From the human T2T-CHM13v2.0 reference genome, Homo sapiens: a stretch of DNA of 64,000 nt. The DNA lies in assembly GCF_009914755.1 (NCBI RefSeq), contig NC_060939.1. The stretch is one strand, 5' to 3'. The translations under genes and the position numbers were made by a program. How positions within the stretch are numbered: position 1 is the first letter of the stretch; every line of letters begins with the position of its first letter. Positions 16,123 through 59,343 of this stretch are shown here, piece by piece. The notes beneath the pieces were generated by a model, which saw only the letters and a list, made by a program, of their open reading frames with translations, ran no database searches and was not told the DNA's origin.

Positions 16123-16184
16123 GCTGAGATTGTGCCACTGTGCTACAGCCTGTGGGACAGGGGGAGATCCTGTCAAAAAAAAAA
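16123..16184 (+). mobile_element. Leftmost Alu 3'-end fragment, with an A10 tail
   Basis: GCTGAGATTGTGCCACTGTGCTACAGCCTGTGGGACAGGGGGAGATCCTGTC followed by A10 (16175-16184). It aligns to the Alu 3' end GCCGAGATCGCGCCACTGCACTCCAGCCTGGGCGACAGAGCGAGACCCTGTCTCAAAA. Confidence 0.85.
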
Positions 16185-19100
16185 CGGGTTGAATGGAATG
16201 CAGTGGAGTGGAGTGGAGTGGAAAGGAGTGGAGTGGAGAGGAATGGAATGGACTGGAGTGTAATGGAATGAAGTGGAGGGGAATGGAATGCAGTAGAGTG
16301 GAATGGAAAGGAATGGAGTGGAGTGGAATGGAATGGAGTGGAGTGGAATGGAATGGAATAGAATGCAGTGGAATGGAGTGGAATAGAATGCAAAGGACTG
16401 GAGTGGAATGGAAAGGATTGGAGTGGAGCAGAATGGAGTGGAGTAGGGTGGAGAGGAGTGGAATCGAGAGGAGTAAAGTGGAATGGAGTGGAGTGGAGTG
16501 GAGTGCACTGGATTGGAATGGAGTGGATTAGAGTTGAATGGAATGGAATGGAGTATAATGGAGTGGAGTGGAGTGGAGTGGATTGGAGTGGAATGGAGTT
16601 GATTGGATTGGAGTGGAGTGAAGAATGAAATGGAGTGGAATAAAATTTAATGGAATGGAGTGGAGTGGAATGGTTTGGAGTATATTTCAATGGATTGGAG
16701 ATGCAGGGAGTGGAGTACAGTGGAATGGAAAGGAATGGAATTAAGAGGAGTGGAGTGGATTTGATTGGAGTTGAGTGGAGTGGAGTGGAATGCAATATAC
16801 TGGAGTGGAAAGAATGGATTGGAGTGGAATGCAATGGAATTGAGGGAAATGGAGTGGAGTGGATTGAAGAGGACTGGAGTGGAGTGGAATGGAATAGAGT
16901 GGACTTGGGTGGAGTGGAATGGAATGGAATGGAATGGAATGGAATGGAGTGGAGAGGAATGGAATGCAGTGTCATGGAGTGGAGTGGAGTGGAATGGAAT
17001 GGAACGGAATGCAGGGGAGTGGAGTGAAAAGGAATGGAATGGAATGGAGGTGTGGTGTGAAGTGGAATGGACTGGAATGGAATCAGATGTAATGGAATGT
17101 AGAGGAGTGAAGTGGAGTGGAATGGAATGGAATGGAGTGCAGTGGAGTGGAGTGGAGAGGAATGCAGTGGAATGGAGTGGAATGGAGTGCAGTGGAGTGG
17201 AGAGGAGCGGAATGGAGTCGAATGTAATAGGATGTAATAGAGTGGAGCCGAGTGGAATAGTATGGAAATGAATGGAAAGAACCAAACGGAACAGAATGGA
17301 TGCTGAGATTGTGCCACTGTGCTACAGCCTGTGTGACAGACAGAGGTTGTGTCGAAAGAAAGGAGTGAAAGGTGATTCAGTGGAGTCGAGTGGAGTGCAG
17401 TGGAATGGAGTGGAATGGAATGGAATGGAGTGGAATGCAGAGGAGTGTAGTGGAGTTGAGTGGAGTGGAATGGAGTGAAATGGAGTGGAGTGGAATGCAA
17501 TGGAATGGAATGGGGAGTGAAACAGAATGCAATGAAACATAATGGAATGGAATGGAATGGAATGGACTGCTAAGGGTGCTGAGACTGTGCCACTGTGCTA
17601 CAGCCTTTGTAAGAGAGGGAGATCCTCTCAAAAGAAATTAATGGAATGGGATGGAGTTGTTTGCAGTGGAGTGGAATGTAGTTGAGTGGAGTTGAGTGGA
17701 GTGGAATGGAGTGGAGTTGCGTGGAATGGAGTGGAGTGTAGTAGAATGGAATAGAGAGGAGCGGAGTGGAATGGAATGGATTGCAGTGGAATGGACTTGA
17801 GTGGAGTGGAATGGACTGGAGTGGAATGGAATGGAGCAGTCGAGTGGAGTGGAATTTACTGGAGTGGAGTGCAGTGGAATGGAATGGAATGGAATGAAGT
17901 GGAGTTGAGTGGAGTGGAGTGGATTGAAGTGGAAAGGAAAGGAGTGCAATGGAATGCAGTGAAGTGGAGAGGAGTGGAATGAAGTGAAATGGAATCAGAT
18001 GTAATGGAATGTACTGGAATGGAGAGGAGTTCAATGCAATGGACGAAATGGAACACAACGGAATGGAACAAAACGGAACGGAACGGAATGGGTGCTGAGA
18101 TTGTTCCACTGCACTACAGCCTGTGTGACAGAGGGAGATCCTGTTGAAAGAAAGGGGTGGAATGGGATGGCGTGGAGTGGAATTGAGTGGAAAGGAGTGG
18201 AGTGGATTAGGGTGGAATGAAGTGGAGTGGAGTTGAATGGAGTGGGGTAGAGTGGAATGCAATGAAGTGGAGAGGAGTGGAATGGAATGGAGTGGAGTGG
18301 AGTGGAAAAAACAGGAGTGGAGTGGAATGGACTGGAGTGGAATGGAAAGGAATGGTGTGGAATGGAAAGGAATGGAATGCAACAGAGTGGAATGGAATGG
18401 AAAGAAGTTGAGGGTAATGGAGAGGAGTGCAGTGGACTGGAGAGAATTTGAGTGGAATGGAATGAAATGGAGTGGAATGGAATGGAATAGAGTGGAGTTG
18501 AATTAACTTGAATGCAGTTGATTAAACTGGAGTGGAATGAAATGGAAATGAATGGAGTAGAATAGAGTGGAGTGGAGTGGCGTGGAATGGAGTGGAATGA
18601 AATGGAATAGAATTGAATGGAGTTACAGCCTGTGTGACAGAGGGAGATCCTGTTGAAAGAAACGAGTGGAATGGTATGGAGTGGACTGGACGGGATCGGA
18701 GTGAAGTGGAGTGGAATGGAGAGGAATGGAGTTGAGTGGAGTGGAATGGAGTGGAGTGGACTGAAGTGGAATGGAGTGGACTGGAATAGAATGGAGTTCA
18801 ATGACTTGGAACGGAGTGGAGTGGAATCGAATGGAAAGAAGTGGAATGGCATGGAGTGGACTGGATTGGAGTGGAATGAAGTGGAGTGGAATAGAATGGA
18901 CTGGAATTTACTGAAATGGAGCGGAATGGACTGGAGTGGAATGGAATGGAATGGAGTGGAATGGGATGCAACAGAGTGGAGTGGAGTGGAATGGAGTAGA
19001 GTGGAGTGAAGTGGAGTTGAGTGGAATGGAGTGGAGTGGAGTTGAATGGAGTGGAATGGAGTGGAATGAAGTGGAGTGGAGTGGAGTGGAATGGAGTGGA

Positions 19101-22100
19101 GTGGAATGGAGTGCAGCGGAGTGGAAAGGAATGGAGAGGAGTGGAGTTGAGTGCAGTGAAAAGGAGTGGAGTGGAGTGGAGTTGAGTGCAGTGAAACGTA
19201 GTGGAATGGAGTGGAATGGACTGGAGTGGATTGCAATGGACTGGAGTGGAATAGAATGGATTGGAGTGCAATGCAATGGAATGGAGAAAAATGGAGTGGA
19301 GTGGATTGAAGTGGAGTGGAATGGAGTGGAGTGGAATAGAGTGGAATGGAGGGGAGTGAAGTGAAATGGAGTGGAGTGGAATGGAATAGAATGGTTTGGA
19401 GTGGAATGGAATGGAGTGGCGTGGAGTGGAGTCGAGTGGAATGGAATGGAATGGAATGCAGTGGAGTGGAGTGGAGTGAAAAGGAATGGAATGGAATGGA
19501 GGTGTGGACTGAAGTGGAATGGAGTGGAATTGGATTGGATGTAATGGAATGTAGTGGAATGGAGTGGAGTGGAATGGTATGGAACAGAATGGAGTGGAAT
19601 GGAGTGCAGTGAAGTGGAGTGGAGTGGAGTGGAAAGGAATGGAGTGGAATGGAGTTGAATGGAGTGCAGTGGAGTGGAGAGGAGTGGAATGGAGTTGAAT
19701 TGAATTGGAGGTAATGCAACGTAGTGAAGTGGAACGGATTGGAATGGAATGGAACGGAACGGAATGGAATGGAATGGAATCGAACGGAAGAGAATGGGTG
19801 CTGAGATTGTGCCACTGTGCTACAGCCTGTGTTACAGAGGGAGAGCCTGTCGAAAGGAAGGAGTGGAAGGGTATGGAGTGGAGTAGAGTGGAGTGGAGTG
19901 GAATGGAGTGGAATGCAGTGGAATAGAGTTGAGTGGAATGGAATGGAGCAGATCGGAGTGGAATGGAATGGACTGGAGTGGAATGGAATGGATTGGAGTG
20001 GAGTGGAATGGTGTGGAGGGGAGTGGAATGGAATGGAGTAGAGTGGAAAGAATTCGAGTGGAGTGGAATGGACTGGAGTGGACTGGAATGGAATGGGGTG
20101 GAATGGAAGGGAGTGGAGTGGAGTGGAATGGAGTGGAGGGGAGTGGAGTGCAGTGGAGTGGAGTTGAGTGGAATGGAATGTAGTGGAGTGGAATGGAATG
20201 GAATGAAGAAAAGTGGAATTTACTGGAAGGGAGTGGATGGAACTGTAGTGGAATGGATTGGAATGGCGTGGAAAGGAGTGGAATGGAGTGGAATGGAGTG
20301 GAATGGAGTGCAGTGGAGTGCAGTGCAGTGGAGTGCAGTGCAGTGGAATTGAATGGAATGGAATGGAATGGAATGGAATGGAGTGGACCGGAATGGAATG
20401 AAGTGGCGTAGAGAGAAGTAGAGTAGAATTGAATGCAACACAATGGAATGGAACGGAATGGGTTTTGAGATTGTGCCTCTGTGCTACAGCCTGTGTGACA
20501 TAGGGAGAACCTGTCAAAAGAAAGGAGCAGAATTGAATGGAGTGGAGAGAAGTGGAGTGGAGTGGTTTGGAGTGGAATGGAGTGTAATGCAGTGGAAAAG
20601 AGAGAAATGGATTGGAGTGGTATGGAGGGAAGTGAAATGAAGTGGATTGGAGTGGAATGGAGTGTAATGCAGTGGAAAAGAGAGAAATGGATTGGAGTGG
20701 TATGGAGGGGAGTGAAATGAAGTGGAGTGGAGTGGAATGGACTGGACTTTGGTGGAAAGGACGGCAGTGGAGTGGAATGGAATGGAGTGGAGTGGAATGG
20801 AATGGAGTCGAGTGGAATGGAGTGGAGTGGAGTGGAATGGACTGAAATGGAGTAGAATGGACTGGAGTGGAATGGAATGGAATGGAATGGAGTGCAAAGG
20901 AATGAAACAGAGTGGAATGGATAGAAGTGGAATGGAATGGAATGGAATCGAATGGAGGAGTGGAGTGGAGTTTAATTGAGTGGAGTTGGGTGGAGTGCAG
21001 TGAAATGGAATGGAATGGAATGCAATGGAGTGGAGAGGAGTGGAGTGGACTGGAAAGGAATGGAGTGGAATGGAGTGCAGTGGAGTTCAGAGGAGTGGAA
21101 TGGATTGAAATGGAATAGGATGTAATGGAATGTAGTGAACTGGAGTGGAGTGGAGTGGAATGGAATGGAATGCAACAGAACGGAACGTGGGCTGAGATTG
21201 TGCCACTGCATTACAGCCTGTGTGACAGAGGGAGATCGTGTCGAAGGAAAGCAGTGGAATGGGATGGAGTGGAGTGGATTGGAGTGGAGTAGAGTGGAAT
21301 GCAGTGGAGTGGAGTGATATGGATTGGAGAGGAATGGATGGAGTGGAATGGAATGGAGAGGAGTGGAAAGGAATGGAGTGGATTGGAGTGAAATGGAGTT
21401 GAGAGGAGTGGAATGGCCTGGAGTGGAATGGACTGGAATGGAGTGGAATGGAATGGAATGGAATGGAAAGGAATGGAGTCAAGTGGTGTAGAATGGAGTG
21501 GAGTGGAGTGGAGTGGAGTTGAGTACAGTGGAATGGAGTGGAGTGGAATTGAGTGGAGTGGAATTGAATGGAATGGAATGGAGTGGAGTGGAATGGAATT
21601 CAACGGAGTAGAGTGGAATTTACTGGAAAGGAGTGGAATGAACTAGAGTGGATTGGAATGGAATGGAGTGGAATGGAGTGGAGTGGAGAGCAATGGATTG
21701 GAGTGGAGTGGAGGGGAATGGAATGGAAAGGAGTGGAATGGAATGGAGTGGTGAGGAGTGCAGTTGAGTTGAATGGATAGAAATAGAAGGTAATAGAATG
21801 GAATGGAATGGATTGGAATGGAATTGGTGCAGAGATTGTGCAACTGTGCTACAGCCTGTGTGACAGAGGTAAATCATGTCGAAAGAAAGGAGTGTAATGG
21901 GGTGGGTTGGAGTTTAGTGGAGTGGAGTTGAGTGGAATGGAATGGAATGGAATGGAGTGGAGTGGAGTGAAATGGAGTGGAGTGGAGTGGAATGGAGTGG
22001 AGTGGAATGGAGTGGAGTGAAATGGACTGGAGTGGAGTGGAGTGGAATGGAATGGAGCAGAGAAGAGTGGAATGGAATGGAATAGAGTGGAAAGAACTGG

Positions 22101-25100
22101 AGTGGAGTGGAATGAACTGGCGTGGAATGGAAAGGAGTGGAATGGAATGGAATGAAATGGAATGGAATGGAATGGAATGGAATGGAGTGGAACGGAATGG
22201 AATGGATTTGAGGGGAATGGAGAAGAGTGGAGTCGATTGGAGTGGAGTGGAGTGGAGAGGAGTTGAGTAGAATGGATTGGAATAGAGTGGAGTTCAATTT
22301 GCTTGAATTGAGTTGAATGGACAGGAATGGAATGGAGTGGAAAGGAATGGAGTGAAATAGAGGGGATTGGAGTGGGGTGGAGTAGAGTGGAGTGGAATAA
22401 AGTGGAGTAGAATTCAATGGAGCTACAGCCTGTATGACAGAGAGAAATCCTGACGAAAGAAAGGAGTGAAATGGGATGGAGTGGACTGGACTGGAGCGGT
22501 GTGAAGTGGAGTGGAATGGAGTGGAATGGAGTTGAGTAGAGCGGAATGGAGTTGAGTGGAGAATGGAGTGTAGTGAAGTGCAGTGGAGCAGACTGGAATG
22601 GAATGGAGTGCAGTGACATGGAACGGAGTGGAGTGGATTCGAATGGAAAGGAGTGGAATGGGATGGAGTGGACTGGAATGAAGTGGAGTGAAGAGGAGTG
22701 GAATGGATGGGAATGGAATGGAATGGGAATGGAGTGGACTGGAAAGTAATGGAGTGGAATGGAGTGGAGTGGAGTGAAATGGAGTGGAATGGAATGGAAT
22801 GGAGTGGATAGGAATTTACTGGAAAGAAATGGAATTAACTGGAGTGGATTGGAATTGAATGGAGTTGAAGGGAACGGAATGGAGAGGAATGGAGTGGAGT
22901 GGAGTGGAGAGGAATGGAGTGGAGTGGAATGGATTGGGAAGGTTTTACTTGAATGGAGTGGAATGGAATGGAGTGGAATGGAGTGGAGTGGAGTGGAATG
23001 GAGTGGAGTGGAGTGAAGTGGAGTTGAGTGGAATTGAATGGAGTGGATTGAAATGGAGTGGAGTGGAGTGGAATGAAGTGGAGTGGAATGGAGTGGAGTG
23101 GAACAGAGAGGAGTGCAGTGGATAGGAGTGGAGTGGGACAGAGAGGAGTGGAGTGGATAGGAGTGGAGTGGAGGGGAATGGAATGGAATGGAGTGGAGTG
23201 GAACGGAGTAGAGTGGAGTGGAAAGGAATGGAGTGGATTGGAGTGGAGTGGAGTAGAGTGCAGTGAAATGGAATGGAATGGAATGAAATGGAATGGAATG
23301 CAATGGAATGGAATGGAGTGGAGTGCAATGGACGGGAGTGGAATAGAATGGATTGGAATGGGATGCAATAGAATGGAGAGAAATGGAGTGGAGTGGATTG
23401 AAGTGGAGGGGAATGGAGTGTAGTGAAATAGAGTGGAATGGAGTGGAGTGGAGTGGAATGGAGTGGAGAGGAATGGAATGGAACGGAATGGAATGGAATG
23501 GAATGGAACGGAACGGAACGGAACGGAACGGAACGGAATGGAATGGAATGGAGTGGAGTGGAATGGAATGCTATGGAGTGGAATTTCCTGGAAAGGAGTG
23601 GAATTAACTGGAGTGGACTGGAATTGAATGGAGTGGAAGGGAATGGAATGAAGAGGAATGGAGTGGAGTGGAGAGGAATAGAGTGGAGTGGAGTGGAGTG
23701 GAATGGTGGAGTGGAGTGGAATGGAATGGAGTGGAGTGGAATGGAATGGAGTGGCTTGGAGTGGAGTTGAGTTGAATCAAATTTAACTGAATGGAATGGA
23801 ATGGAATGGAATGCAATGGAATGGAATGGGTGCGGAGATTGTGTAACTGCGTTACAGCCTGTGTGACAGAGAGAAATCATGTCCAAAGAAAGGAGTGTAA
23901 TGGGGTGGGATGGAGTTGAGTGGAATGGAATGGAGTGGCGTGGAATGGAGTGGAGTGGAGTGGAATGGAGTGGAGAGGAATGGAGTGGAATGGAATTGAG
24001 TGGAGTGAAATGGAATGGAGCGGAGTGGACTGAAATTGAATGGATCGTTGAGTGGAGTGGAGTGGAATGGGGTGGAGTGGAGTGGAATGGAGTGGAATGG
24101 AATGGAGTGGAGTGAAACGGAATGGAGCAGAGCGGAGTGAAATGGAATGGATCGGAGAGGAGAGGAATTGAATGGAGTGGAGTGGTATGGACTGGAATTG
24201 AGTGGAATGGACTGGAGTGAAATGGAATGGAATGGAGTGGAATGGAATGGAGTGGAAGGGAATGGAGTGGAGTGTGGTGGAATGGAGTGGAGTGGAGTGG
24301 AGTTGAGTGGAATTGAATGGAGTGCAGTGGAATAGAATGGAATGGAGTTAACTGGAATTTTCTGGAATGGAGTGGAATGGACTGGAGTGCAATGGAATGG
24401 TGTGGAATGAAACGGAATGGAGTGTAACGGAGTGTAGTGCAGTACAGTGGAGTGGAATGGAGAGGCCTGGAGTGGAGTGGAGTGGTATGGAATGGAATAG
24501 AACGGGGTCGAGTGGAATGGAATGGAGTGTTGTGGACTGGAGTGGAGTGGAGTGGAATGGAATGGAGTGGTGTGGAGTGGAGTGGAGTACAGTGAAGTGG
24601 AGTGCAATGGAATGGAATGGTATGGAGTACAGTGAAATAGAGTGGAATGGAATGGAGTGGATTGGAATGTAGTGGTGTGCAATGGAACCGAATGGAGTGG
24701 AGTGGAGTAGAATGGAGTGGAGTGGAATGGAATGCAACGGAATGCAGTGGAGTGGAATGGAATGGAGTGGCGTGGAATAGATTTGAGTGAAATTGAAAGG
24801 AATGGAATGGAATGTCATGGAATGGAATGGAATGGGTGTTGAGATTGTGCCATTGTGCTACAGCCTGTGTGACAGAGGGAGATCCTGTATAAAGAAAGGT
24901 GTGGATTTGGATGGAGTGGAGAGGAGTGGAGTGGAGTGGAATGGAGAGGAACGGAGTGGTGTGGAGTGGAATGGAGGGGAGTGGAGTGCAGTGGAGTGGA
25001 ATGGATGGGAGTGGAGTGCAGTGGAGTGGAATGGAGAGGAACGGAGTGGTGTGGATTGGAATGGAGTGGAGTGGAGTGGAGTGGAGTGGAATGGAGTGGA

Positions 25101-27080
25101 GTGGACTGGAGTGGAGTGGAGTGGAATGGAGTGGAGTGGACTGGAGTGGAGTGGAGTGGAATGGAGTTCAGTGGGGTGGGGTGGAGTGGAATGGAGTAGA
25201 AAGGAATGGAGTGGAGTGTGGTGGAGTGGAGTGGAGTGGAGTTTAATGGAATGGATTGGAGTGGAATGGAATAGAATGGAGTGGAGTGGAATGGATTGGA
25301 GTGTTGTGGATTGGAGAGAAGTGGAATGGCATGGAGTGGAATGGAATGGCATGGAGTGGAGTAGAGAGGAGTGGAGAGGACTAAAGTGGAGTGGAATGGA
25401 ATGGAGTGGAATGAAATGGAATGTAGTGCAGTGCAGTGGAGAGTAGTGGAATGGACAGGAATGGAATCTTATGTAATGGAATGTAGTGGAGTGGAGTGGA
25501 ATGGAGTGGAGTGGAGTGTGGTGGAACAGAATGGAACGGAATAGAGTGCAACGGAATGGAACAGAACGGGTGCTGAGATTGTGCCACTGCGCTACAGCCT
25601 GTGTGACGGAGGGAGATCCTGTCGAATAAAAGGAGTGGAATGGGATGGAGTGGAGTGCAGTGGAGTGGTATGGAGTGGAGTGGAGTGGAATGGAATAGAA
25701 TGGAATGAAATGCATGCTGAGATTGTGCCACTGCACAACACCCTGTTTGACAGAAGGAGACCCTGTCGAAAGAAAGGACTGGAATGGGTTGGAGTGCAGT
25801 GTAGTGTAGTGGAGTGTAGTGGAATGGAGTGGAGTGGAGTGGAATGGAGTGGAGTGGAGTGGAATGGAGTGGAATTCAGTGGAGTGGATTGTAATGGAGT
25901 GGAGTGGAGTGGAATCGAGTGGAGAAGAGTCGAATGGAATGGAGTGCAGTGAAATGGAAAGAACGGGACTGTAGTGGAATGGAGTGGAGTGGAGTTGAAT
26001 GGAATGGAATGGACTGGAGTGGAATGGAATGGAATGGTGCGTAATGGAATGGACTGGAATGCAGTTGAATGGAATGGAGTGGAGTGGAACAAAATGGAAT
26101 GGAAGGAACCAGAATGAAACGGAACAAAATGTGTGCTGAGATTGTGTCACTGTGCTACAGCCTGTGTGACAGAGGGAGGTCCTGTCGAAAGAAAGGAGTG
26201 AAATGGAATGGAATGGGGTGGAGTGGAGTGGAGTGGACCAGAACGGAGTGGAGTGTAGTGGAGTGGAATGCAGTGGAGTGGAGTGGAATGGAGTGGAGAG
26301 GAGTGGATGGAGTGGAGTGGAGTGGAATGGAGTGGAATCGATTGGAATGGACTTGAGTGGAATGGAATGGACTGGAGTGGAATGGAATGGAATGGAGTGG
26401 AATGGAATGGAGTGAAGTGGAGTGGAATGGATTGCAGTGGAGTGGAGTGGAGAGGAATTGTGTGTAACGGAACAGGGTGGAGTGGAATGGAATGGAATGG
26501 AGTGGAGTGGAATTTACTGGAGTAGAGTGGTATGGACTAGAGTGGAATGGAATGGAATGGAGTGGAACGGAATGGAATGAGTGGAGTGGAGTGGAATGTC
26601 GTGGAGTGGAGTAGAATGGAGTGGAGTGGAATGGAATGCAACGGAATGAAGTTGAGTGGAATGGAATGGAGTGGTGTGGAGTAGACTTGAGTGAAACGGA
26701 AAGGAATGGAGTAGAATGCAATGGAATGGAAAGGAATAGGTGTTGAGATTGTGCCATTGCTCTACAGCCTGTGTGACAGAGGGAGAACCTGTCGAGCGAA
26801 AGGAGTGGAATGGGATGGAGTGGAGTGAAGTGGAGTGTAGTGGAGTGGAATGGAGAGGAACAGAGTGGTGTGGAGGGGAATGAAGTGGAGTGGAGTGGAA
26901 TGGAGTGCAGTGGAGTGGGGTGGAGTGGAATTGAGTAGAAAGGAATGGAGTGGAGTGTGGTGGAATGGAGTGGAGTGGAGTTTAATGAAATGGATTGGAA
27001 TGGAATGGAATGGAATGGAGTGGAGTGGAGTGGAGTGGAATGGATTGGAGTAGAGTGGAGTGGAGAGCAGTGGAATGGAG

Positions 27081-27305
27081 TGGAATGGAATGGAATGGAA
27101 TGTAGTGGAATGGAATGGAATGGAATGGAATGTAGTGGAATGGAATGGAATGTAGTGGAATGGAATGGAATGGAATGGAATGTAGTGGAATGGAATGGAA
27201 TGGAATGGAATGTAGTGGAATGGAATGGAATGGAATGGAATGTAGTGGAATGGAATGGAATGGAATGGAATGTAGTGGAATGGAATGGAATGGAATGGAA
27301 TGTAG
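27081..27305 (+). repeat. Perfect 30-bp minisatellite [TGTAG(TGGAA)5]n inside the diverged satellite
   Basis: TGTAG at 27101, 27131, 27151, 27181, 27211, 27241, 27271 and 27301, separated only by perfect TGGAA units (one 20-bp unit). Confidence 0.9.
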
Positions 27306-42300: not shown

Positions 42301-44621
42301 TGGAGTGGGATGGAATCGATTGGAATGAAGTGGAGTTTAGTGGAGAGGAGTGGTGGGAAGTGTAGTGGAGTAGAATGAAATTGGATGGAATTGAATGGAT
42401 TGGAGTGGAGTGACGTGGAGAGGAGGAGAAGAGTGGAGTGGAATGGCATGCAATGAAATGGAATAGAGTGCAGTGGAGTGGAGTGGAGTGGAATGGAATG
42501 TAGTGGAAATGGATTGAACGGAATGGAAAGGAATGGAATAGAATAGAATGGAATGGTGAAATGAAATATCAGCTGAGATTGTTCCACTGCACTCCAACAT
42601 GTGTGACAGAGTGAAATCCTGTTGAAAGAAAGGAATGGAATGGAAAGGAGTGGAATGAATGAAACGGAATTGAGTGGAGTGGAGAGAAGTGGAGTACATT
42701 GGAGTACATTGGAATGAAATCGGATAGAATGGAATGGAGTGAAGTGAAGTGGAGTGGAGTGGAATGGAATGGAATGGAATGCAGAGGAGTGGAGTTCACT
42801 GGAGTGGAATGGAACACGATGGAATGGTATTGAATGGAATGGAATGGAATGCAATGGAGTGCAATGGAATGCAATGGAATGGGATGCAATGGAATGGAAT
42901 CGAATGGTGAAATTAAATGTAAGGTGAGATAGTGCCACTACATCCAGGTCTGGGTGACAGAGATCCTGTCGAAAGAAAGGAATGGAATGGAATGGAGTGA
43001 AAAGGAATGGAATGGAATGGAGTGAAATGGAATGGAATGGAATGGAGTGGAGTGTAGTGGAGTGGAATGGAGTGGAATCGAATGGGATGGAGTGGAATGG
43101 AATGGAATGGAGTGGAGTGGAGAAGAATGGAGTGAAAAGAAATGGGATGGAATGGAATGGAGTGGAGTGGAATGGAGTGTAGTGGTGTGGAGTGCAGTTG
43201 ATTAGAGTGTAGTGGAATGGACTGGAGTGGAGTGCAGTGGAATGGAGTGGAGTGGAATGGAAGGGAATGGAATGCAATGTAATGGTGAAATGAAATGTGA
43301 GATGAGATTGTGCAATGGTATTCCAGCCTTTTTTGACACAGTGAGATCCCATCAAAAGAAAGGGATGGCATAAAGTGGAGTAGAATAGAATGGAGTGGAA
43401 TGGATTGGAGTGGGCTGGATTGGAGTGGAGTGCAGTGCAGTCGAGTGGAAAGGAGTGGAATGGAATGGGATGCAATGGAATGACATGGAGTGGAGTGGAG
43501 TGGAGTGGAGTGAATTGGAGTGAAGTAGAGAGGAATGGAGTGGAATTAAATGGGATGGAAAGGAATGGCATGGAGTTGAGTGGAATGGAGTGTAGTGGAT
43601 TGGAGTGTAGTGGAGTGGATTGGAGTGTAGTAGAGTGGAATGGAATGGAATGGAATGGAATGGAATGCAATGGAATGGAATGGAATGGAATGGTAAAATG
43701 AAATGTGAACTGAGTTTGTGCCACTTAACGCCAGCCTGGGTGACAGAGACAGATCCTGTCAAAAGAAAGGAATGGAATGGGGTGGAGTGTAGTATAGTGG
43801 TTTGGAGTTCAATGGAGTGCAATGGAATGGGATGGAATGGAATGGAATGGAGTGCGGTGGAGTGGAGTGGAGTGGAGTGGAGTGGCATGGAGTGGAATGG
43901 AATGCGATGGAATGGAATAAAGTAGAGTGGAGTTGAATGGAGTGGACTGGAGTGGAATGTAGTGGAATGGAATGGAATGAAGTGGAGTGGAGTGCAGTGG
44001 AGAGGGGTGAAGTGGAATGGAGTGGAATGGAATGGAATGGAATGGAATGGAATGGAATGGAATGGAATAGTGAAATGAAATGTGACCTGAGATTCTGCCA
44101 CTGCACTCCAGACTGTGTGACAGAGTGAAATCCTGTCGAATGTAAGGAATGGAATGGAATAGAGTGGAATGGAAAGGAAAGGAATGGAATGGAATGGAAT
44201 GGAATGGAATGGAGAGGAGCAGAGCGGAATGGAGTGGAGTGGAATTGAACGGAATTGGAAGGAATCGAATGGAACGAAGTGGAACGGAGTGGAATGTAGA
44301 GAAGGGACGAGGAGTGGAAAGGAATAGTATTGGATGAAATGGAATGGAGTGGAGTGCATTGGGGTGAAGAAGAGTGGAATGGAATGGAATGGAATGGAGT
44401 GGAATGGAATGGAGTGGAGTGGAGTAGAGTGGATTGGGGTGGAGTGTAATGGAATAGAATGGAATGGAAAGGAAAAGAATGGAATAGAATGGAATGATGA
44501 AATGAAATATGAGCTGAGATTGTGCCACTGCACTCCAGCCTGGGAGAAACAGTGAGATCCGGTCAAAGGAAAGGAATGGAATGGAAAGGAGTGGAATGGA
44601 ACGGAATGGAATGGAATGGAA

Positions 44622-44666
44622 CGGAACGGAACGGAACGGAACGGAACGGAACGGAACGGAACGGAA
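44622..44666 (+). repeat. (CGGAA)9 pentamer run
   Basis: Nine consecutive CGGAA units. A similar (CGGAA)6 lies at 23509-23538. Confidence 0.9.
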
Positions 44667-47600
44667 TGGAGTGGAGTGGAGTGGAGTGCAGTAGAGTGGA
44701 GTGCAGTATAGTGAAATTGAATGGGATGGAATGGAATGGAATGGAGCAGAGTAGTGTGGAGAGGAGTGGAATGGAATTGAAAGGAATGGAATTGAAAGGA
44801 ATGGAATGGAGTGCAGTGGAGTGAAGTGGACTGGAGTGTGTAGGAGTGGAATGGAATGGGATGGAATGGAACTTAAAGAAACATAATGCAATTGAATGCA
44901 ATGGAATGGAATGCAATGGAAAGGAATGTGAAATGAAATGCTAGCGGATATAGTGCCACTGCACCCCAGGCTGGGTGACAGAATGAGACCTTGTCGAAAG
45001 AAAGGAATGGAATTGAATGGAGTTGAATGGAATGGAATGGAGTGGAGTGGAGTGGAGCTGAGTGGAGTGGACTGGATTTGACTGGAGTTGAGTGGAGTGC
45101 AGTGGAATGGAATGGGGTGGAGTGGAATGTAAAGGAGGGGTGAGGAGTGGTGTGGAGTGGAGTGAAGTGGAATCGAGTGGAATTCAATGGGATGGAATGG
45201 AGTGGAGTGGAGTGGAATAGATTGCAATGGAATGGAATGGAATGGAAGGGAATGTAATTGAGTGCAGAGGAGTTCATTGGAGTGGAATGGAATGCAGTGG
45301 AATGGGAAGGGATGTAATGTAATGTAATGGAATGGAATGGAGTGGAATGGAATGGAATGGAATCATGAAATGAAATGATAGCTGAGATTATGGCGCTTAA
45401 CTCCATCCTGGGTGATGGAGTGAGATCATGTCGACAGAAAGGAATAGAACGGATTGGAGTGGAATGGAATGGAGTAGAATGCAGTGGAGTGGAGTGGAGT
45501 GGAATGGACTGGAATGGAATGGATTAGAATGCAGTGGAGTGGAGTAGAGTGGAATGGACTGGAATGGAATGAGATCGGAAGGAGTGGAATGGGGTGGAGC
45601 AGAGTGGAGTGAAGTGGAATGCAATGGAGTGGAATGGAAAGGGATGGAATGGAATAGAGTGGAGAGGAGTGGAGTAGAGTGCAATGGAATGGAATGGAGT
45701 GGAGTGGAGTGGGGTGGAGTGGAGAGGAGTGGACTGGAATGGAATGGAATGGAATGGAGTGGAATAGAGTGGAATAGAATGGTGAAATGAAATCTGAGCT
45801 GAGATTATGCCTCTGCACTCCATCCTGGGTGACAGAGTGAGATCCTGTCGAAAGAAAGCAATGGAATGGATTGGAGTGGAATGCAATGGAATGGAATGGA
45901 ACGGAAAGGAATGGAATGGAATGGAAAGGAGGGAATGGAATAGAATGGAGTGGGGTGGAGTGGAATGGAGTTGAATGGAATGGGATGTAATGAAATGGAG
46001 TGTAATGGACTGGACTGGAGTGGAATGGAGTTGAGTAGAGTGGAAGGGACTGGAATGGAATGGGATGGAATGGAATGGAATGGAGTGGAGTGGAGTGGGG
46101 TGGAAAGGAATGGGATGGAGTTGAGTGGAGTGGAGTGAAATGGAGTAGAATGGAAAGGAATGGAGTGGAGTGGAGTTGAATGGAATGGAATGGAATGAAA
46201 TTGAATGCAATAATGAAATGAAACGTGAGGTGTTATTGTGCTACCGCACTCCCGCCTTGGTGACAGAGTGAGATCTTCTTGAAAGAAAGGAATTGAATGG
46301 AATGGAGTGGAATGGAATGGAATGGAATGCAGTGGATGGAGTGGAGTGGAATAGAGTGGAACGGAATGTGATGGAGTGGAATGGAATGGAGTGGAGTGGA
46401 GTGGAATTGAGTGGAATGGAAAGGGATGGAATGGAATGGAATGGGGAGGAGTGGAGTGGAAGGGAGTTGAGTGGAGTGGGGAGGAATGGAATGGAATGGA
46501 ATGGAGTGGAGTAGAGTGGCGTGGAGTGGAGTGGAGTAGAGTGGAGTATAGTGGAGTGGAGTGGAGTATAGTGGAGTGGAATGGAGTATAGTGGAATGGA
46601 GTGGAATGGAATGGAATGGAATTAAGTGGAGTGGAGTGCAGTGGAATGGAATGGAATGGAATGGAATGGAATGGAATGGAATGGAATGGAAAGGAATTGA
46701 AAGGAATGGAATGCAGTGGAGTGGAGTGGAGTTCACAGAAGTGGAATAGAATTGAATGGAATGCAATGGAATGGAATGCAATGCAATGGAAAGGAATGGA
46801 ATGCAATGGAATGAAATGGAATGGAATGCAATGGAATGCAAAGGAATGGATGGTGAAATTTAATGTGAGCTGAGATAGTGCCACTGCACTCCAGCCAGGG
46901 TGACACAGTGAGAGTCTGTCGACAGAAAGGAATGGAATGGAAAGCAGTGAAACGAATGGAATGGAATAGAATGGAGTGGAGGGGAGGGGAGTGGAGTGGA
47001 GTGGACTGGAGTGAAATGGAGTCGAATGGAATGGGATGGAGTGAAATGGAATGGAGTGGAGTGGACTAGAGTGAAATAGAGTGGAAAGGAATTGGATGGA
47101 ATGGAATGCAATGGAATAGTGAAAAGAAATTTGAGCTGAGATTGTGCCACTGCACTCCAGCCTTTGTGAAAGAGTGAGATCCTGTGGAAAGAAAGGAATG
47201 TGATGGAATGGAGTGGAATTGTATGGAATGGAATGGAGTGAAGTGGAGTGGAGTGGAGTCGAGTGCAATGGAGTGGAATGGAATGGGATGGAAAGGAATG
47301 GCATGGAGTGGAGTAGAGAGGAGTGGATTGGAGTGGAGTAGATTAGCATGGAATGGAATGGAATGGGATGGAATTGAATGCCATGGAATGAGGTGGAGTG
47401 GAGTGGACTGGATGGAGTGGACTGGATTGGAGTGGAGTAGAGTGTAATGGAGTGGAGTGGAATGGAATGGAATGGAATGGAATGCAGTGGAAAGCAATGG
47501 AATGGAATGCTATGGAATAGATTGGAATGGAGTGGTGAAATGAAATGTGAGCTGAATTTGTGCCAATGCCCGCCAGTCTGGTTGACAGGGTTACATGCTG

Positions 47601-50284
47601 TCAAAAGAAAGGAATGGAATGGAATGAATTGGAGTGGAGCTGAGTGGAGTGGAGTGGTGTGGAGTGGAATGGAGTGGAATGGAATGGGATGGAGTGGAAT
47701 GGAATGGAGTGTATTAAGTGGAGTGGCATGGAGTGAAATGCAGTGGAATGGAACGCGATGGAATGGGATGGAATGGAATGGAGTGGAGTGGAGTGGAATA
47801 GAGTGGAATAGAGTGGAATGGAGTGGAATGTAATGGAATGGAATGGAGTGGATTGGAGTGCAGTGAAGTGGAGTGGAATGGAATGGAATGGAATAGTGAA
47901 ATGAAATGTAAGGTGGGATTCTGCCACTGCACTCCAGACTGGGTGACAGAGTGACATCCTGTCGAATGTGAGGAATGGAGCGGAATGGAGTGGAATGGAA
48001 TGTAGTGGAGTGGAGTGGAATGGAACGGAGTGGAAAGGAATGGAACGGAATGGAGTGGAGCGGAGTGGAGAGGAGTGGAGTTGAATGGAATGGAATGGGA
48101 TGGAATCGAATGGAATGAAGTGGAGGGGAGTGGAGTGGAGTGTTGTGGAGAGGAGTGGAGTGGTATGGAATTGGATGGAATTGAATGGAGTTCAGTGGAG
48201 TTGGGTGGAGAGGAATGGAGTACACTGGAGTGGAATTGAATGGAATGGAATGGAGTGGAGTTGAGTGAAGTGGAGTGGAGTGGAGTGGAATGCAATGTAG
48301 TGGAATGGAATTGAATGGAATGGAAAAGAATGGAATGGAATAGAATGGAATGATGAAATGAAATATGAGCTGAGATTGTGCCACTGCACTCCAGCAGGGT
48401 GACAGAGTGAAATCCTGTTGAAAGAAAGGAATGGAATGGAAAGGACTGGAATGCAATGGAATGGAATAGAGTGGAGTGGAGTATACTGGAAGGGAGTGGA
48501 ATGGAATGGGATGGAATGGAATGGAGAGGAATACACTGGAGTGTAGTGGAGTGGAATGGAATGGAATGGAATGGAATGGAATGGAATGCAGTGGAGTTTA
48601 GTTCACAAGAGTGGAATGGAATGGGATGGAATGGAATGGAATGCAATGGAATGGAATGCAATGGAATGGAATAAAATGGAATGCAATGGAAGGGAATTGT
48701 GAAATTAAATGTTAGCTGAGATAGTGCCACTGCACTCCAGCCTGTGTGACAGAGTGAGATCCTGTCGAAAGAAATTAATGGAATGTAAAGGTGTGAAGTA
48801 TGATGGAATGGAAGGAAATGGAATGGAGTGTAGTGTAGTGTAGTGGAATGGAGCGTAATGGAGTGGAATGGAATGGGATGGAGTGGAATGGAATGGAGTG
48901 GAATGGAGTGGATTGAATTGGAGTAGAGTGGAGTTGACTGGATTGAAGTGGAATGGAGTGGAGTGGAGTGGAATGGAATGGAATGGAATGGAATGGAATG
49001 GAATGGAGGGGAGTGGAGGGAGGTGGAGGGGAATGGAGTGGAGTGGAGTGGAATGGTGAAATAAAATGTGAGCTGAGATTGTGCCACTGTGTTCCAGCCT
49101 TTTTTGACATAGTGAGATCCCATCAAAAGAAAGGACTGGAATGGAATGGGGTGGAATGGAATGGAGTAGAATGGAACGGAGTGGAGTGGGTTGGAGTGGA
49201 GTGCATTGGAGTGGAGTGGAGTCAAGTGAAATGGAGTGAAATGGAATGGAAGGGAATGGAATGGCATGTAGTGGAGTGGGGTGGAGTGAATTTGAGTAGA
49301 GTAGGGTGGAATGGAGTGGAATGGAGTGGAATGGAATGGGATGGAAGGGAATGGCATGGAGTGGAGTGGAATGGAGTGGATTAGAGTGGAGTAGAGTGGA
49401 ATGGAAAGGAACGGAATTAAATGGAATGGAATGGAATGGTATGGAATGGAATGGAATGCAATGGAATTGAATGGAATGCAATGGAATGGAATGGAATGGA
49501 ATGGAATGGAATGGAATGGAATGGAATGGAATGGTGAAATGAAATGTGAGCTCAGTTTGTGCCACTGCACGCCAGCCTGGGTGACAGAATGAGATCCTGT
49601 CGAAAGAAACGAATGGAATGGAATGGAGTGGAGTGTAGAGGTGTGGAGTGATGTGGAGTGGAATGGAGTGGAATGGAATGGGATGGATTTGAATAGAAGG
49701 AGTGTAGTGGAGTAGATTGGAGTGGAGTGGAGTGGAATGGAGTGGAATGGAATGGAATTGAATGGAATGGAATGGAATGGAATGTTGTGTAGTGTATTGG
49801 AATGGAGTGGAATGGAGTGAAATAGAGTGTAATGTAATGTAGTGGAATGGAGTGGAGTGGAGTGCAGTGGAGAAGGGTGTAGGGGAATGGAATGGAATAG
49901 TGAAATGAAATGTGAGCTGAGATACTCCCACTGCACTCCAGACTGTGTGACAGAATGAGATCCTGTCGAATGGAATTGAATAGAGTGGAATGAAATGGAG
50001 TGCAGTGGAGTGGAGCAGAGTGGAGTGGAGTGGAGTGGAATGGAATGGAATGGGATGGAATCAAATGGTATGAAGTGGAGGGGAATGGAATTGAGTGGAG
50101 GGACGAGGAGTGGAATGGAATGGAATTGGATGGAATGGGATGGAATGGAGTGGAGTGGGGTGGAGAGTAGTGGAGTAGAGTGGAATGGAATGGAGTGGAG
50201 TGGAGTAGAGTGGATTGGAGTGTAATGGAATAGAATGGAATGGATAGGAATGGAATGGTATAGAATGGAATGATGAAATGAAAT

Positions 50285-50348
50285 ATGAGCTGAGATTGTG
50301 CCACTGCACTCCAGCCTGGGTGACAGAGTGAGATCCTGTCAAAGGAAA
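50285..50348 (+). mobile_element. Representative, near-consensus Alu 3'-end fragment (type B)
   Basis: ATGAGCTGAGATTGTGCCACTGCACTCCAGCCTGGGTGACAGAGTGAGATCCTGTCAAAGGAAA. It differs from the AluJ-type 3' end mainly by CpG>TpG changes and loss of the terminal TC. Confidence 0.9.
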
Positions 50349-52620
50349 GGAATGGAATGGAAAGGAGTGGAATGGAATGGAATGGAATGGAATGGAATGG
50401 ATTGATTGGAGTGCAGTGGAGTAGAGGTGAGTGGAGTTCACAGTAGTGCAATGGAATGGAATGGAGTGGAGTCGAGTGCAGTGGAGTGGGTTGGAATGGA
50501 ATGGAGTGGAATGGAATGGGATGGAATGGAATGGAGTGGAGTGGAGTGGAGTTCACAGGAGTGCAATGGAATGGGATGGAATGGAATTGAATGGAATGGA
50601 ATGGAATACAATGGAGTGGAATGCAATGGAATGCAATCGAATGGAATTGTGAAATTAAATGTGAGCTGAGATAGTGCCACTGCACTCCAGCCTGTGTGAC
50701 AGAGTGAGATCCTGTTGAAAGAAATTAGTGGAATGTAAGAGAATAAATTATACTGGAATGGAATGGATTGGAGTGGAGTGGAGAGTAATGGAGCTTAATG
50801 GAGTGGAAGGGAATGGGAAGGAGTGGAATGGAATGGAGTGGAGTGGAGTGGAGTGGAGTGGAGTGGAGTGGAGAGAAATGAGGTAAAATGCAATGGGATG
50901 GACTGGAATGGAGTGGAGTGGAGTGGAGTGAATTGGAATGGAGTGGATTTGACTGGATTGCAGTGGAATGAAGTGGAGTGGAATGGAATGGAATGGAATG
51001 GAGGGGAGTGGAGTGGAGTTGAGGGGAATGGAGTGGAGTGGAATGGAGTGGAATGGAATGGAATGGAATGGTGAAATAAAATGTGAGCTGAGATTGTGCC
51101 ACTGTGTTCCAGCCTTTTTTTGACACAGTGAGAGCCCGTCAAAGGAAAGGAATGGAATGGAATATGGTGGAATGGAATGGAGTGGAGTGGATTGGAGTGG
51201 AGTGGAGTGGAGTCAAGTGGAACAGAGTGGAATGGAATAGGATGGAATCGAATGGCATGTAGTGGAGTGGGATGGAGTGAATTTCAGTGGATTAGGGTGG
51301 AATGGAGTGGAATGGAATGGGATGGAAGGGAATGGCATGGAGTGTAGTGGAGTGGACTGGAGTGGGTTAGAATGGAATTGAATGGAATGGTATGGAATGG
51401 AATGGAATGGAATGCAATGGAATGGAATGGTGAAATTGAATGTGAGCTGAGATAGTGCCACTCCACTCCAGCCTGGGTGACAGATTGAGATCCTGTCAAA
51501 AGAAAGGAATGGAATTGAATGGAGGGGAATGGAATGGGATGGAGTGGGGTGGAGTGGAGTGGAGTGGATGGGACTGGATTTGAGTGGAGTCTAGTGGAAC
51601 AGAGTGGAATGGAATGGGGTGGAGTGGAACGGAATGGAATGGAGAGGAGTGGTGTGGAGTGGAGTGGATTGGAATTCAATGGGATGGAATGGTATGGAGT
51701 GGAGTGGAATGGAGTGGAGTGGAATGGAATGGAATGGAATGGAATTGGAATGGAATGGAATGGAATGGAGAGGAGAGGAATGGAGTGGAATGTAGTGTAA
51801 TTGGAAAGGATGGAATGGAATGGAATGCCATGGAATAGAATTAGGAATAGAATGGAATGATGTGGAATGGAATGGAGTAGAATTCAGTGGAGTGGAGTGG
51901 AGTGGAGTGGAATGTAATGTAATGGAATGGGATGGGATGGAGTGGAATGGAATGGAGTGGAGTGGAGTGGAGTGGAATGGAGTGGAATGCAATGGGATGT
52001 GATGGAATGGAGTGGAGTGGAGTTGAGTGGATTGAAATAGAATGGAATGGAGTGGAGAGGAGTGTAGTGGAATGGAATGGAATGGAATGGAATAGAAGGG
52101 AATAGAATGGTGAAATGAAATGTGAGCTGAGATTGTGCCACTGCACTCCATCCTGGGTGACAAGTGAGATTCTATCGAAAGAAAGGAATGGAACGGATTA
52201 GAGTGGAATGGAATGGAGTGGGGTAGAGTGGAGTGGAGTGTAGTGGAGTAGAGTGGAATAAAGAGGAATGGAATGGGATGTAATGGAAAGGAATGCAGTG
52301 GAGTGGAGTAAAGTGGAGTGGAGCGGAGTGGAGTGGTGTGGAGTGGAGTGGAGTGGAGTGGAATGGAATGGAATGGAATGGAATGGAATGGAATGGCACG
52401 GTGAAATGAAATGTGGGCTGAGATTGTGCCACTTCACTACAGCCTGGATGACAGAGTGAGTTCCTGAAGAAATAAAATAATGTAATAGAATGGATTGGAA
52501 TGAAATGGAATGGAGTGTAGTGGACTGGAGTAGAGTGGAATGGAGTGGAGTAGAGTGGAAGGGAATGGAATGAAATGAGATGGAATGGAATGGAATGGAA
52601 TAGAATGGAGTGGAGTGGAG

Positions 52621-52964
52621 TGCAAAAATCCTCAATAAAATACTAGCAAGCCGAATCCAGCAGCAAATCAAAAAGCTTATCCACCATGATCAAATGGGTT
52701 TCATCCCTGGGATGCAAGGCTGGTACAACATACGCAAATCAGTAAACGTAATCCATCATATAAACAGAACCAACGTCAAAAACCACGATTATCTCAATAG
52801 ATGCAGAAAAGCCCTTTGACAAAATTCAACAACCTTCATGCTAAAAACTCTCAATAAATTAGATATTGATGGGACGTATCTCAAAATATTAAGAGCTATT
52901 TATGACAAACCCGCAGCCAATATCATACTGAATGGGCAAAACCTGAAAGCATTCCCTTTGAAAA
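52621..52964 (+). mobile_element. L1PA internal fragment (ORF2 reverse-transcriptase region), frameshifted
   Basis: Translates to [50 protein letters not shown] and [42 protein letters not shown], which match the L1 ORF2p RT region. Small deletions (AACCAC--GATT, CAACAACC-TTC) break the frame. No poly(A) and no TSD. Confidence 0.95.
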
Positions 52965-53213
52965 TCTCAGTTACCTTTCTTTTGGATATGTGTGTGAGGA
53001 AAGAGTACCTACAAACTACCCTTTTAGTTAAATGCCATATACAATAAATATTAATACCTACAGTCCTCATGTTGTACATTAGAGCCCTCAATTTGTTAAT
53101 TCTACATATCTGCAACTTTGCATCCTTCGAATTCTCTATCTCCATTTTCTCTTCTCACCCCCAGCCCCTAGTAACCACTGTTTTATACTCTATCTCTGCA
53201 TATTTACCTTTTT
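52965..53213 (-). mobile_element. Old L1 (L1MA-type) 3' UTR fragment
   Basis: AGTTACC...TACAGTCCTCATGTTGTACATTAGA...CTGCAACTTTGCATCC...CCCCAGCCCCTAGTAACCACTGTTTTATACTCTATCTCTG resembles the antisense L1MA 3' end as I remember it. Confidence 0.7.
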
Positions 53214-59305: not shown

Positions 59306-59343
59306 TTGAGATCCTTATTGTGAGATTCAATTCAGAATCTGGG

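What the first reader, a model, noticed from the sequence alone, without database searches (positions are those of the whole stretch)
16123..52480. Composite satellite: one ~60-bp Alu 3'-end fragment amplified ~79 times inside a GGAAT/GGAGT array
Seen: about 79 same-orientation copies of the same Alu interval (from GTGAGC/GTGCTGAG to CCTGTC plus an A-rich tail), spaced ~140-1400 bp apart by pentamer blocks over 36 kb. Most copies share derived states: CpG>TpG in GCTGAG/GATTGTGCC/GTGAC, GAGATCCTGTC, a missing terminal TC, and a GAAAGAAAGG tail. They have no individual TSDs. They also share satellite landmarks, such as GGAATCRGATGTAATGGAAT ~95-105 bp upstream of the copies at 18094, 28498, 30069 and 35218. 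Known: the CCTGTC ending is the AluJ/monomer (FRAM/FLAM) state, whereas AluS/Y have CTCCGTCTC. Alu-fragment composite satellites are known with AT-rich DNA (DYZ2/HSat1B). Inference: a single old, already CpG-decayed Alu end was captured once and then amplified as part of a variable-length satellite monomer. Routine annotation would split this into simple repeats plus dozens of tiny Alus and hide the family. I cannot confirm that it is undescribed.
Basis: partly seen in the sequence, partly recalled or inferred. Interest (0 to 1): 0.8.

Follow-up and report, generated by a model that had tools for sequence, protein, structure and literature searches.

The report
Alu-end fragment embedded in HSat3 satellite
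A short piece from the tail end of one Alu element has been copied along with a pentamer satellite (human satellite 3) thousands of times on many chromosomes; the pattern is real, but the human genome papers have already noted it in outline.

Summary
A profile search finds 79 same-strand copies of one 56-nt Alu right-arm 3' interval plus an A-rich tail between 16120 and 52485, and none on the other strand inside the array. All copies share the same two breakpoints and the same tail. The satellite consensus reads TG at all five former CpG sites, a combination seen in 1 of 67 ordinary Alus. A single capture followed by co-amplification with the pentamers is well supported.

1. The feature is not local to chr15. 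The two Alu/satellite junctions occur 2,099 and 2,388 times genome-wide with 0 control hits, on at least 14 chromosomes. The window's block is 92-99% identical to paralogues on C22, C14, C3, C13, C21 and C4.
2. The AluJ/monomer assignment is not secure. The interval mixes an S/Y-like state with a J-like state.
3. It is already in print in outline. The T2T-Y paper describes HSat3 arrays intermingled with Alu fragments on Y and the acrocentrics, and the CHM13 centromere paper says HSat3 units often include old TE fragments.

Possibly new details are the fixed breakpoints, the B → A0 → A series of types, and doubt about the published AluY label.

The parts
16120..31655 (+). Type A sub-array: 24 copies of the Alu-end island in a GGAAT/GGAGT array, spacing 146-1407 bp. 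The body carries CTACAG / CTGTGTG / GAGGGAGA and the 5' junction reads ...GGAATGGGTGCTGAG. Two copies (18623-18672 and 22422-22471) share the same 5' truncation, 3.8 kb apart.
   Evidence: 24 of 24 copies in this segment typed A
32045..52485 (+). Type B sub-array: 55 copies, 51 type B (5 of them the TTTTT variant) and 4 type A (34576, 35214, 39033, 39492). Median spacing is 376 bp. Type B is closest to ordinary Alu (CTCCAG / CTGGGTG / GAGTGAGA) and is preceded by the conserved GGTGAAATGAAAT.
50272..50368 (+). Example of one complete island: a 13-nt conserved upstream flank, the 56-nt Alu right-arm 3' interval (GTGAGC...CCTGTC), an A-rich tail of about 10 nt, then pentamers.
   Evidence: copy c50285; best profile score in the window, 83.7 bits
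39034..39565 (+). Two A0 copies (39034-39106 and 39493-39565) with a B-type upstream flank and an A-type body. This is the intermediate form, and it is also found on C1, C3, C4, C10, C13, C15, C16 and C22.
31742..34490 (+). Block duplicated at an offset of about 4.46 kb; its partner is 36221-38919 at 89-93% identity. This is the only clear higher-order repeat in the array.
36221..38919 (+). Second copy of the duplicated block.
52486..52625 (+). Last pentamers of the array. The satellite ends here and non-satellite sequence follows.

Best explanation
This is a stretch of human satellite 3 from a lineage whose repeat unit contains a passenger. The passenger is the last 56 nt of an Alu right arm plus a short A-rich tail, flanked upstream by a conserved 13-nt pentamer variant. 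One Alu 3' end came to lie in a GGAAT array, on the strand that reads GGAAT. By then, or soon after, all five of its CpGs had become TpG. The island and its neighbouring pentamers were then multiplied together by the usual satellite processes (unequal exchange, slippage in pentamer steps, block duplication). This gave units with a median of about 370 bp that vary in multiples of 5 bp. Monomer variants arose early, in the order B, then A0, then A, along with the TTTTT form. The lineage then spread to the acrocentric short arms, several pericentromeres and the Y. The window's own 36-kb block is an old, poorly homogenised array that was recently copied between chromosomes. Its 16-32 kb part is a local expansion of the most derived type, A. 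Shown here: anatomy, counts, shared breakpoints, co-orientation, genome-wide spread and paralogue identity. Inferred: the order of events and the amplification mechanisms. I see no evidence that the Alu piece has a function of its own.
For: Window copies: 79 of 79 are co-oriented and share the same 3' end and tail.
Other loci: in 20 10-kb loci on 14 chromosomes, all 418 satellite-embedded copies lie on the GGAAT strand.
Shared boundaries: of 501 profile hits (4 are ordinary Alus), 472 match the 13-nt upstream flank at >=10/13, 449 match the tail at >=8/10, and 0 continue with TC after CCTGTC.
Founder signature: the satellite consensus has TG at all five former CpG sites, versus 1 of 67 ordinary Alus. 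At four of these sites T is present in 424-476 of 497 copies.
Clade test: with 110 satellite and 67 ordinary rows over 56 columns, the tree holding the satellite copies together has a higher likelihood (+44 lnL) and is not rejected (AU p 0.81).
Pentamer-step variation: 379 of 476 spacings fall in two residues mod 5.
Genome-wide junction counts: 2,099 and 2,388, with 0 in reversed controls.
Pattern of identity: paralogues are 92-99% identical over about 3.5 kb, while inside the array only one block pair exceeds 89%.
Against: No progenitor was found. An exact-pattern search for a satellite-embedded copy retaining more of the Alu gave 6 hits, all ordinary euchromatic Alus, and that search tolerates no mismatch. 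The 56 columns resolve little: the free quick tree needs 5 label changes. Concerted evolution could in principle make independent insertions look alike, although it would not give them identical breakpoints. No ape genome could be searched, so the timing is not anchored. The 20 comparison loci were chosen from exact pattern matches and are therefore biased toward well-conserved copies.
Confidence: 0.85

Rival explanations
1. The Alu end is the seed, not a passenger. In this reading the pentamer array of this lineage grew out of the Alu's own A-rich tail, as pentanucleotide repeats are reported to do at Alu tails, and Alu end plus expanded tail was then duplicated as a unit.
For: The Alu sense strand is always the purine-rich GGAAT strand, and the tail grades directly into pentamers (GAAAGAAAGG then GGAATGG). 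[quoted passage not shown] Six ordinary euchromatic Alus carry a near-identical tail.
Against: The upstream side of the piece is also pentamer satellite, with its own conserved 13-nt flank. The adjacent 14.4 kb of the same GGAAT/GGAGT satellite (1640-16100) has no copy. The junction counts imply that only a small share of the 47.6 Mb of HSat3 carries the piece. The orientation is equally expected from L1-type integration into an A-rich strand, which is established knowledge and was not tested here.
Confidence: 0.08
2. The published reading: the HSat3-associated Alu fragments are AluY fragments seeded from AluY elements of PAR1 (T2T-Y paper).
For: The T2T-Y paper states this from a tree rooted on AluSc8 (passages read). 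The piece has the S/Y-like GAGAT state in 405 of 497 copies. The satellite consensus differs from the data-derived S/Y-like consensus at 8 of 56 positions, 5 of them CpG transitions.
Against: The piece ends in the J-like CCTGTC, not the S/Y-like CTCCGTC or its decayed forms. As I recall it, and without a test here, the 56-nt interval has no position that separates AluY from AluS. Copies average 10.7% from their own consensus with no CpG left to decay, which is at least as diverged as the sampled old Alus (11-12% with CpG sites included). I could not confirm that the fragments in their tree are the same objects, because the figure and supplements were not available.
Confidence: 0.15
3. Many independent Alu insertions into the satellite were later trimmed or homogenised to look alike.
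For: Ordinary Alus do insert into or beside these arrays. Three were found in the 20 loci (C16 x2, C10).
Against: Those three lack the shared flank and tail and are easy to tell apart. All 497 satellite-embedded copies cover the same interval, and none extends beyond either breakpoint. The five-TG signature is seen in 1 of 67 ordinary Alus.
Confidence: 0.02

Closest known systems
HSat3 arrays intermingled with Alu fragments (T2T-Y paper, bioRxiv 10.1101/2022.12.01.518724; passages read)
   Same: Alu fragments interspersed with HSat3 on the acrocentric short arms and on the Y, with Y and acrocentric copies related to one another. I find the same piece on C13, C14, C15, C21, C22 and C24.
   Different: That text calls them AluY fragments seeded from PAR1 and reports no local homogenisation and no clustering by subgroup. 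Here the interval has mixed S/Y-like and J-like states. All copies share one pair of breakpoints. Distinct types exist, and one of them forms a local block of 24 of 24 copies. The identity of the objects is likely but not verified.
HSat1B / DYZ2 (satellite with an Alu-derived subunit)
   Same: A satellite whose repeating unit includes part of an Alu that was captured once and amplified with it (descriptions).
   Different: HSat1B is a regular unit of about 2.5 kb, made of an Alu subunit, an AT-rich part and a more GC-rich part, and is highly homogenised. Here only 56 nt of Alu sit in a pentamer array of variable length (median 371 bp), and homogenisation is weak.
HSat3 subfamily A4 (Altemose et al. 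2014, PMC4022460)
   Same: Its listed chromosomes (13, 14, 15, 21, 22, Y) match much of the distribution found here. Its diagnostic 24-mer is the only one that recurs in the Alu-bearing loci (table text).
   Different: Only one 24-mer per subfamily was available. It hits 12 of 20 loci at <=1 mismatch and the window's B part 3 times, but the A part 0 times. That paper's main text has 0 occurrences of 'Alu'. Membership is therefore a lead, not shown.
WaluSat and the composite satellites of the T2T repeat paper (bioRxiv 10.1101/2021.07.12.451456; passages)
   Same: Acrocentric satellites whose history involves an Alu, spread by segmental duplication.
   Different: WaluSat is a 64-nt non-Alu unit transduced next to an AluSx3. 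Composite satellites are built entirely of TEs. Neither fits here. That paper also mentions a new annotation for an 'AluJb fragment' without saying where it lies, and I could not tell whether it is this piece.

Membership tests
Human satellite 3 (HSat3) | Built from diverged GGAAT (CATTC) pentamers | tested here: met
   TRF finds period 5, consensus TGGAA, over 15001-52396. GGAAT plus GGAGT make up about half of all pentamer slots in 1640-52620.
Human satellite 3 (HSat3) | Pericentromeric or acrocentric short-arm location | tested here: met
   The window is C15:1612001-1676000. Related arrays lie on acrocentric short arms and near centromeres.
HSat3 subfamily A4 | Subfamily-specific 24-mers of Altemose et al. 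2014 | tested here: inconclusive
   Only one 24-mer per subfamily was available. The A4 24-mer at <=1 mismatch hits 3 times in the window's B part, 0 times in the A part, and 1-13 times in 12 of 20 other loci. The A1 and A2 24-mers hit sporadically (0-2 per locus), and A3, A5, A6 and the B-type 24-mers hit 0 times in the Alu-bearing loci.
Alu (right arm, 3' end) | Sequence homology to the Alu right-arm 3' end | tested here: met
   The satellite consensus matches the consensus of 40 ordinary S/Y-like Alus at 48 of 56 positions, and 5 of the 8 differences are CpG transitions. It also aligns to the in-window Alu.
Alu (as a retrotransposon insertion) | Dimeric body of about 300 bp, poly-A tail and its own target-site duplication | tested here: not met
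   Only 56 nt plus a tail of about 10 nt is present in every copy. None reaches Rfam's SRP model at E<=1 in 30000-64000, whereas the ordinary Alu at 59352-59640 does. TSDs cannot be assessed inside a pentamer repeat.
   Site 2 is J-like (CCTGTC). Site 1 is S/Y-like (GAGAT in 405 of 497 copies). Among ordinary Alus the two sites mostly co-vary (40 S/Y+S/Y, 16 J+J of 67). One Alu that is S/Y-like at 7 of 7 upstream columns has the J-like ending. The subfamily names attached to these states are recalled, not taken from a library.
HSat3-associated AluY fragments (T2T-Y paper) | Alu fragments interspersed with HSat3 on Y and the acrocentrics | tested here: met
   Copies are found on C24 (29 in 10 kb) and on all five acrocentric contigs.
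HSat3-associated AluY fragments (T2T-Y paper) | AluY identity | tested here: inconclusive
   See the J and S/Y sites above. No AluY consensus was available to the tools.
Composite satellite with a regular unit (HSat1B-like) | Fixed unit length or a clean higher-order repeat | tested here: not met
   Spacing ranges 144-1771 bp with IQR 278-466. Only one block pair exceeds 89% identity in 36 kb.

The most novel reading that the evidence does not exclude
All HSat3-embedded Alu pieces in the human genome descend from one founder with fixed breakpoints. That founder was not an AluY but an older element with mixed S-like and J-like states, so the published PAR1-AluY seeding account would be wrong for them. 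The island of about 80-95 nt then defines a discrete HSat3 lineage, roughly 1.5-2 Mb in total, with ancient monomer classes shared between chromosomes. That would give a unique-sequence handle for tracing exchange among acrocentric short arms, pericentromeres and the Y.
Probability: 0.35. Interest if true: 0.4.

Novelty: already known. Interest (0 to 1): 0.28.

Why it matters
As a phenomenon it is ordinary, because satellites often carry a TE fragment in their unit, and the T2T papers have noted this for HSat3. It has modest practical value. The island is a non-pentamer tag recurring about every 370 bp in an otherwise featureless satellite, so it could serve as a marker or probe for one HSat3 lineage and for following sequence exchange between acrocentric short arms. 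The mixed diagnostic states are also a caution against reading RepeatMasker subfamily labels on 56-nt CpG-decayed fragments as evidence of source or age.

Tried and rejected
1. The loose fuzzy-regex scan produced hundreds of minus-strand 'hits' that are only pentamer noise. The profile search replaced it.
2. Rfam: no satellite copy reached E<=1 in 30000-64000; only the ordinary Alu did.
3. The first self-BLAST was swamped by 72% pentamer alignments and was redone with an identity floor.
4. The tree showed a 100% split between satellite and ordinary copies. This was an artefact of a one-column register shift between two separate hmmalign runs. It is discarded and replaced.
5. The type counts used one wrong diagnostic column, and one search used two wrong ones. 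Both are corrected. One CpG column was mis-indexed and is not quoted.
6. Several one-mismatch signature motifs lay within one change of the consensus and are not used. Only the TTTTT variant is kept.
7. The progenitor search found only euchromatic Alus.
8. Literature that was not held: the journal versions of the two T2T papers (ids recalled by me) and three classic satellite III papers. PMC1971745 is held as an abstract only. Bandyopadhyay et al. 2001, cited for TE fragments in HSat3, was not seen.
10. Control fetches from the large chr9, chr15 and Yq12 HSat3 arrays were not possible. The whole-genome pattern counts and the window's own Alu-free 1640-16100 segment serve as the controls.
11. 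I considered a function for the island (protein binding or transcription) and found nothing in the data to support it. The flanks are as conserved as the Alu part.
Full report
**Observation.** Reading the sequence at 16120 and 18091 shows a non-pentamer insert inside GGAAT/GGAGT repeats. A profile built from 22 window copies and searched over the whole window gives 80 hits at E<=0.01. Of these, 79 are on the + strand between 16120 and 52485, spaced 146-1407 bp apart. One is on the - strand at 59352-59415. That last hit is the 3' end of an ordinary dimeric Alu at 59352-59640 in the non-satellite flank. It matches Rfam's metazoan SRP model twice (45.3 and 27.1 bits, both below the gathering score). 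None of the satellite copies reached E<=1 in 30000-64000. The satellite ends at about 52625, and AT-rich non-satellite sequence follows.

**Anatomy.** I aligned the 79 copies with 30-nt flanks, together with the in-window Alu. The Alu-homologous interval is 56 nt, from GTGAGC to CCTGTC. It is followed by an A-rich tail of about 10 nt (most often GAAAGAAAGG) and then pentamers. The terminal TC of ordinary Alus is absent.
- 77 copies begin at the same Alu position.
- The other two (18623 and 22422) share one identical 5' truncation and lie 3.8 kb apart, so they are copies of each other.
- There are two types. With verified diagnostic columns, all 24 copies at 16-32 kb are type A. The 55 copies at 32-52.5 kb are 51 type B (5 of them a TTTTT variant) and 4 type A.
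- Type B is the closer to ordinary Alu.
- Two of the four type-A copies in the B part (39034 and 39493) have a B-type upstream flank with an A-type body.
Four lie 90-99 bp upstream of a copy.

**Structure of the array.** There is no clean higher-order repeat. With an 84% identity floor, self-comparison of 16000-52700 finds one block pair, 31742-34490 against 36221-38919, at an offset of about 4.46 kb and 89-93% identity. It also finds four weaker relations at 85-86%. TRF adds short local periodicities of 144-217 bp. Over the window and 20 other loci, the spacing between islands has a median of 371 bp (IQR 278-466). 379 of 476 spacings fall in two residues mod 5, so length changes occur in whole pentamers.

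**Genome-wide spread.** The window's genome can be searched.
- A 561-nt type-B unit finds 154 matches. They include 96-100% matches on C22, C14, C3, C21 and C13, 91% on C4, and weaker ones on C9 and C17.
- A 31-nt pattern across the tail/pentamer junction, which an ordinary Alu cannot match, occurs 2,099 times at <=3 mismatches and 0 times when read backwards. Exact matches lie on C1, C3, C4, C9, C10, C13-C17, C20-C22 and C24.
- The 5' junction occurs 2,388 times, with 0 in the control.
- Only 43 and 33 of the window's 79 copies match these patterns at that stringency. The true number is therefore several thousand. At about 370 bp per unit that is roughly 1.5-2 Mb, a small share of the 47.6 Mb of HSat3 reported for CHM13. 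This extrapolation is an inference.
- The adjacent 1640-16100 segment of the window is the same kind of satellite but has no copy.

**Test of single capture.** I fetched 20 10-kb loci on 14 chromosomes. The profile finds 421 hits there. Three are ordinary Alus, and all 418 satellite-embedded copies lie on the GGAAT strand. In one register with the window's hits (501 in all):
- 472 match the 13-nt upstream flank at >=10/13;
- 449 match the tail at >=8/10;
- none continues with TC.

The satellite consensus has TG at all five former CpG sites. Among 67 ordinary Alus (from 50 kb of C19 and the window's flank), 22 have lost all five CpGs, but only 1 has TG at all five. At four of these sites T is present in 424-476 of 497 copies.

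A first tree seemed to separate satellite from ordinary copies with full support. This was an artefact of a one-column shift and is discarded. In a common register (110 satellite rows, 67 ordinary rows, 56 columns) the free tree is poorly resolved, with 5 label changes. The tree holding the satellite copies together has a higher likelihood (+44 lnL) and is not rejected (AU p 0.81). A search for a satellite-embedded copy retaining more of the Alu found only six euchromatic Alus. Together these results support one founder. The strongest evidence is the identical breakpoints and the five-TG signature, not the tree.

**Types and history.** Of 497 satellite-embedded copies, 429 are type B (21 of them TTTTT), 49 type A, 15 unclear and 4 partial. 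Outside the window, 21 of 418 are type A, and 15 of those have the intermediate A0 form, on C1, C3, C4, C10, C13, C15, C16 and C22. The TTTTT variant occurs in 9 of the 21 loci under the strict typing, and in 10, including C24, by a one-mismatch motif. Monomer variants are thus shared between chromosomes, and the series B, A0, A runs from most to least Alu-like. The window's 16-32 kb block is a local expansion of type A. Over about 3.5 kb the window is 99.3% identical to C22, 97.0% to C14, 96.2% to C3, 95.9% to C13, 95.4% to C21 and 92.1% to C4. Most neighbouring units inside the array are below 84%. So this is an old array that was recently copied between chromosomes.

**Which Alu?** Two sites inside the interval separate the sampled ordinary Alus into two groups that mostly co-vary (40 and 16 of 67). 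From memory these groups correspond to S/Y and J (the motif-based count gave 36 and 13 of 68). The satellite piece has the S/Y-like state at the first site (405 of 497) and the J-like CCTGTC at the second. Non-CpG differences number 2-3 against the S/Y-like consensus and 3 against the J-like one. Four ordinary Alus were scored as having the same mixture. Two of these were alignment misclassifications. One is S/Y-like at 7 of 7 upstream diagnostic columns, and one is mixed 4 to 3. The CCTGTC ending therefore does not show an AluJ or monomer source, and an AluY label cannot rest on this interval either.

**What is in print.**
[quoted passage not shown] For this it cites three earlier papers, among them Bandyopadhyay et al. 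2001 on acrocentric satellite III subfamilies. I read passages of the preprint but did not see the cited paper.
[quoted passage not shown] - The T2T repeat preprint mentions a new annotation for an AluJb fragment without giving its location, and describes WaluSat, which is a different thing (passages).
- The 2014 HSat2,3 subfamily paper has no occurrence of 'Alu' in its main text. Neither does a 2021 review of human satellites. The HSat3 transcription-factor preprint showed 0 occurrences in a search listing.
- Searches for HSat3 with 'Alu fragment', with AluJ and composite, and with AluY, fragments and acrocentric returned no fuller description.
- Supplements of the bioRxiv papers are closed and may hold more.

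**Verdict.** The feature is a genome-wide property of one HSat3 lineage, possibly subfamily A4, whose 24-mer is the only one that recurs in these loci. It is already described in outline. What may be new is limited to the fixed breakpoints, the type series, and the doubt about the subfamily label.

Noticed in passing
window 1-1640: A different HSat3 type at the left edge. GGAAT fills 63% of pentamer slots, with CAACCCGAGT-like decamers. The HSat3B1 24-mer matches within one mismatch at 936 and 1375. It changes to a GGAAT/GGAGT mixture at about 1640.
   Followed up: partly
window 1640-16100: 14.4 kb of GGAAT/GGAGT satellite with the same pentamer make-up as the type A block but no copy of the Alu island. 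This is either an Alu-free relative or a stretch that lost the island.
   Followed up: no
window 59352-59640 (-): An ordinary full-length dimeric Alu in the non-satellite flank, with sub-threshold Rfam hits to Metazoa_SRP and to mir-1268. It was used as the in-window comparator.
   Followed up: yes
window 52626-64000: The satellite ends abruptly at about 52625. The sequence that follows looks by eye like LINE-1 coding sequence (not tested), and the rest of the window is AT-rich non-satellite DNA.
   Followed up: no
all satellite copies (window and L009-L028): All five former CpGs of the piece read TG and never CA on the G-rich strand. If each site decayed independently on either strand, this would be about a 1-in-32 outcome. 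It may just reflect the founder, or it may reflect strand-biased mutation in a strongly G-over-C-skewed satellite.
   Followed up: no
window 25488-25848, 33781-34528, 38301-38953, 38932-39633: Short local tandem duplications of whole units, with periods of 144, 217, 202 and 162 bp (TRF). They give the closest-spaced islands in the array.
   Followed up: no
L034-L039 (C3, C4, C5, C7, C16, C22 chromosome arms): Six ordinary euchromatic Alus end in CTGTC followed directly by A/GAAAGAAAGG, without the usual TC. The satellite's tail form can therefore arise in ordinary Alus.
   Followed up: no
C15:1567712 (about 44 kb left of the window) and C13:5006926, C14:1346775, C21:1986760, C22:3536490: Exact matches to the type-A tail junction lie 85-135 kb upstream of the type-B paralogues on each acrocentric. 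This suggests further type-A blocks within the same shared duplication.
   Followed up: no
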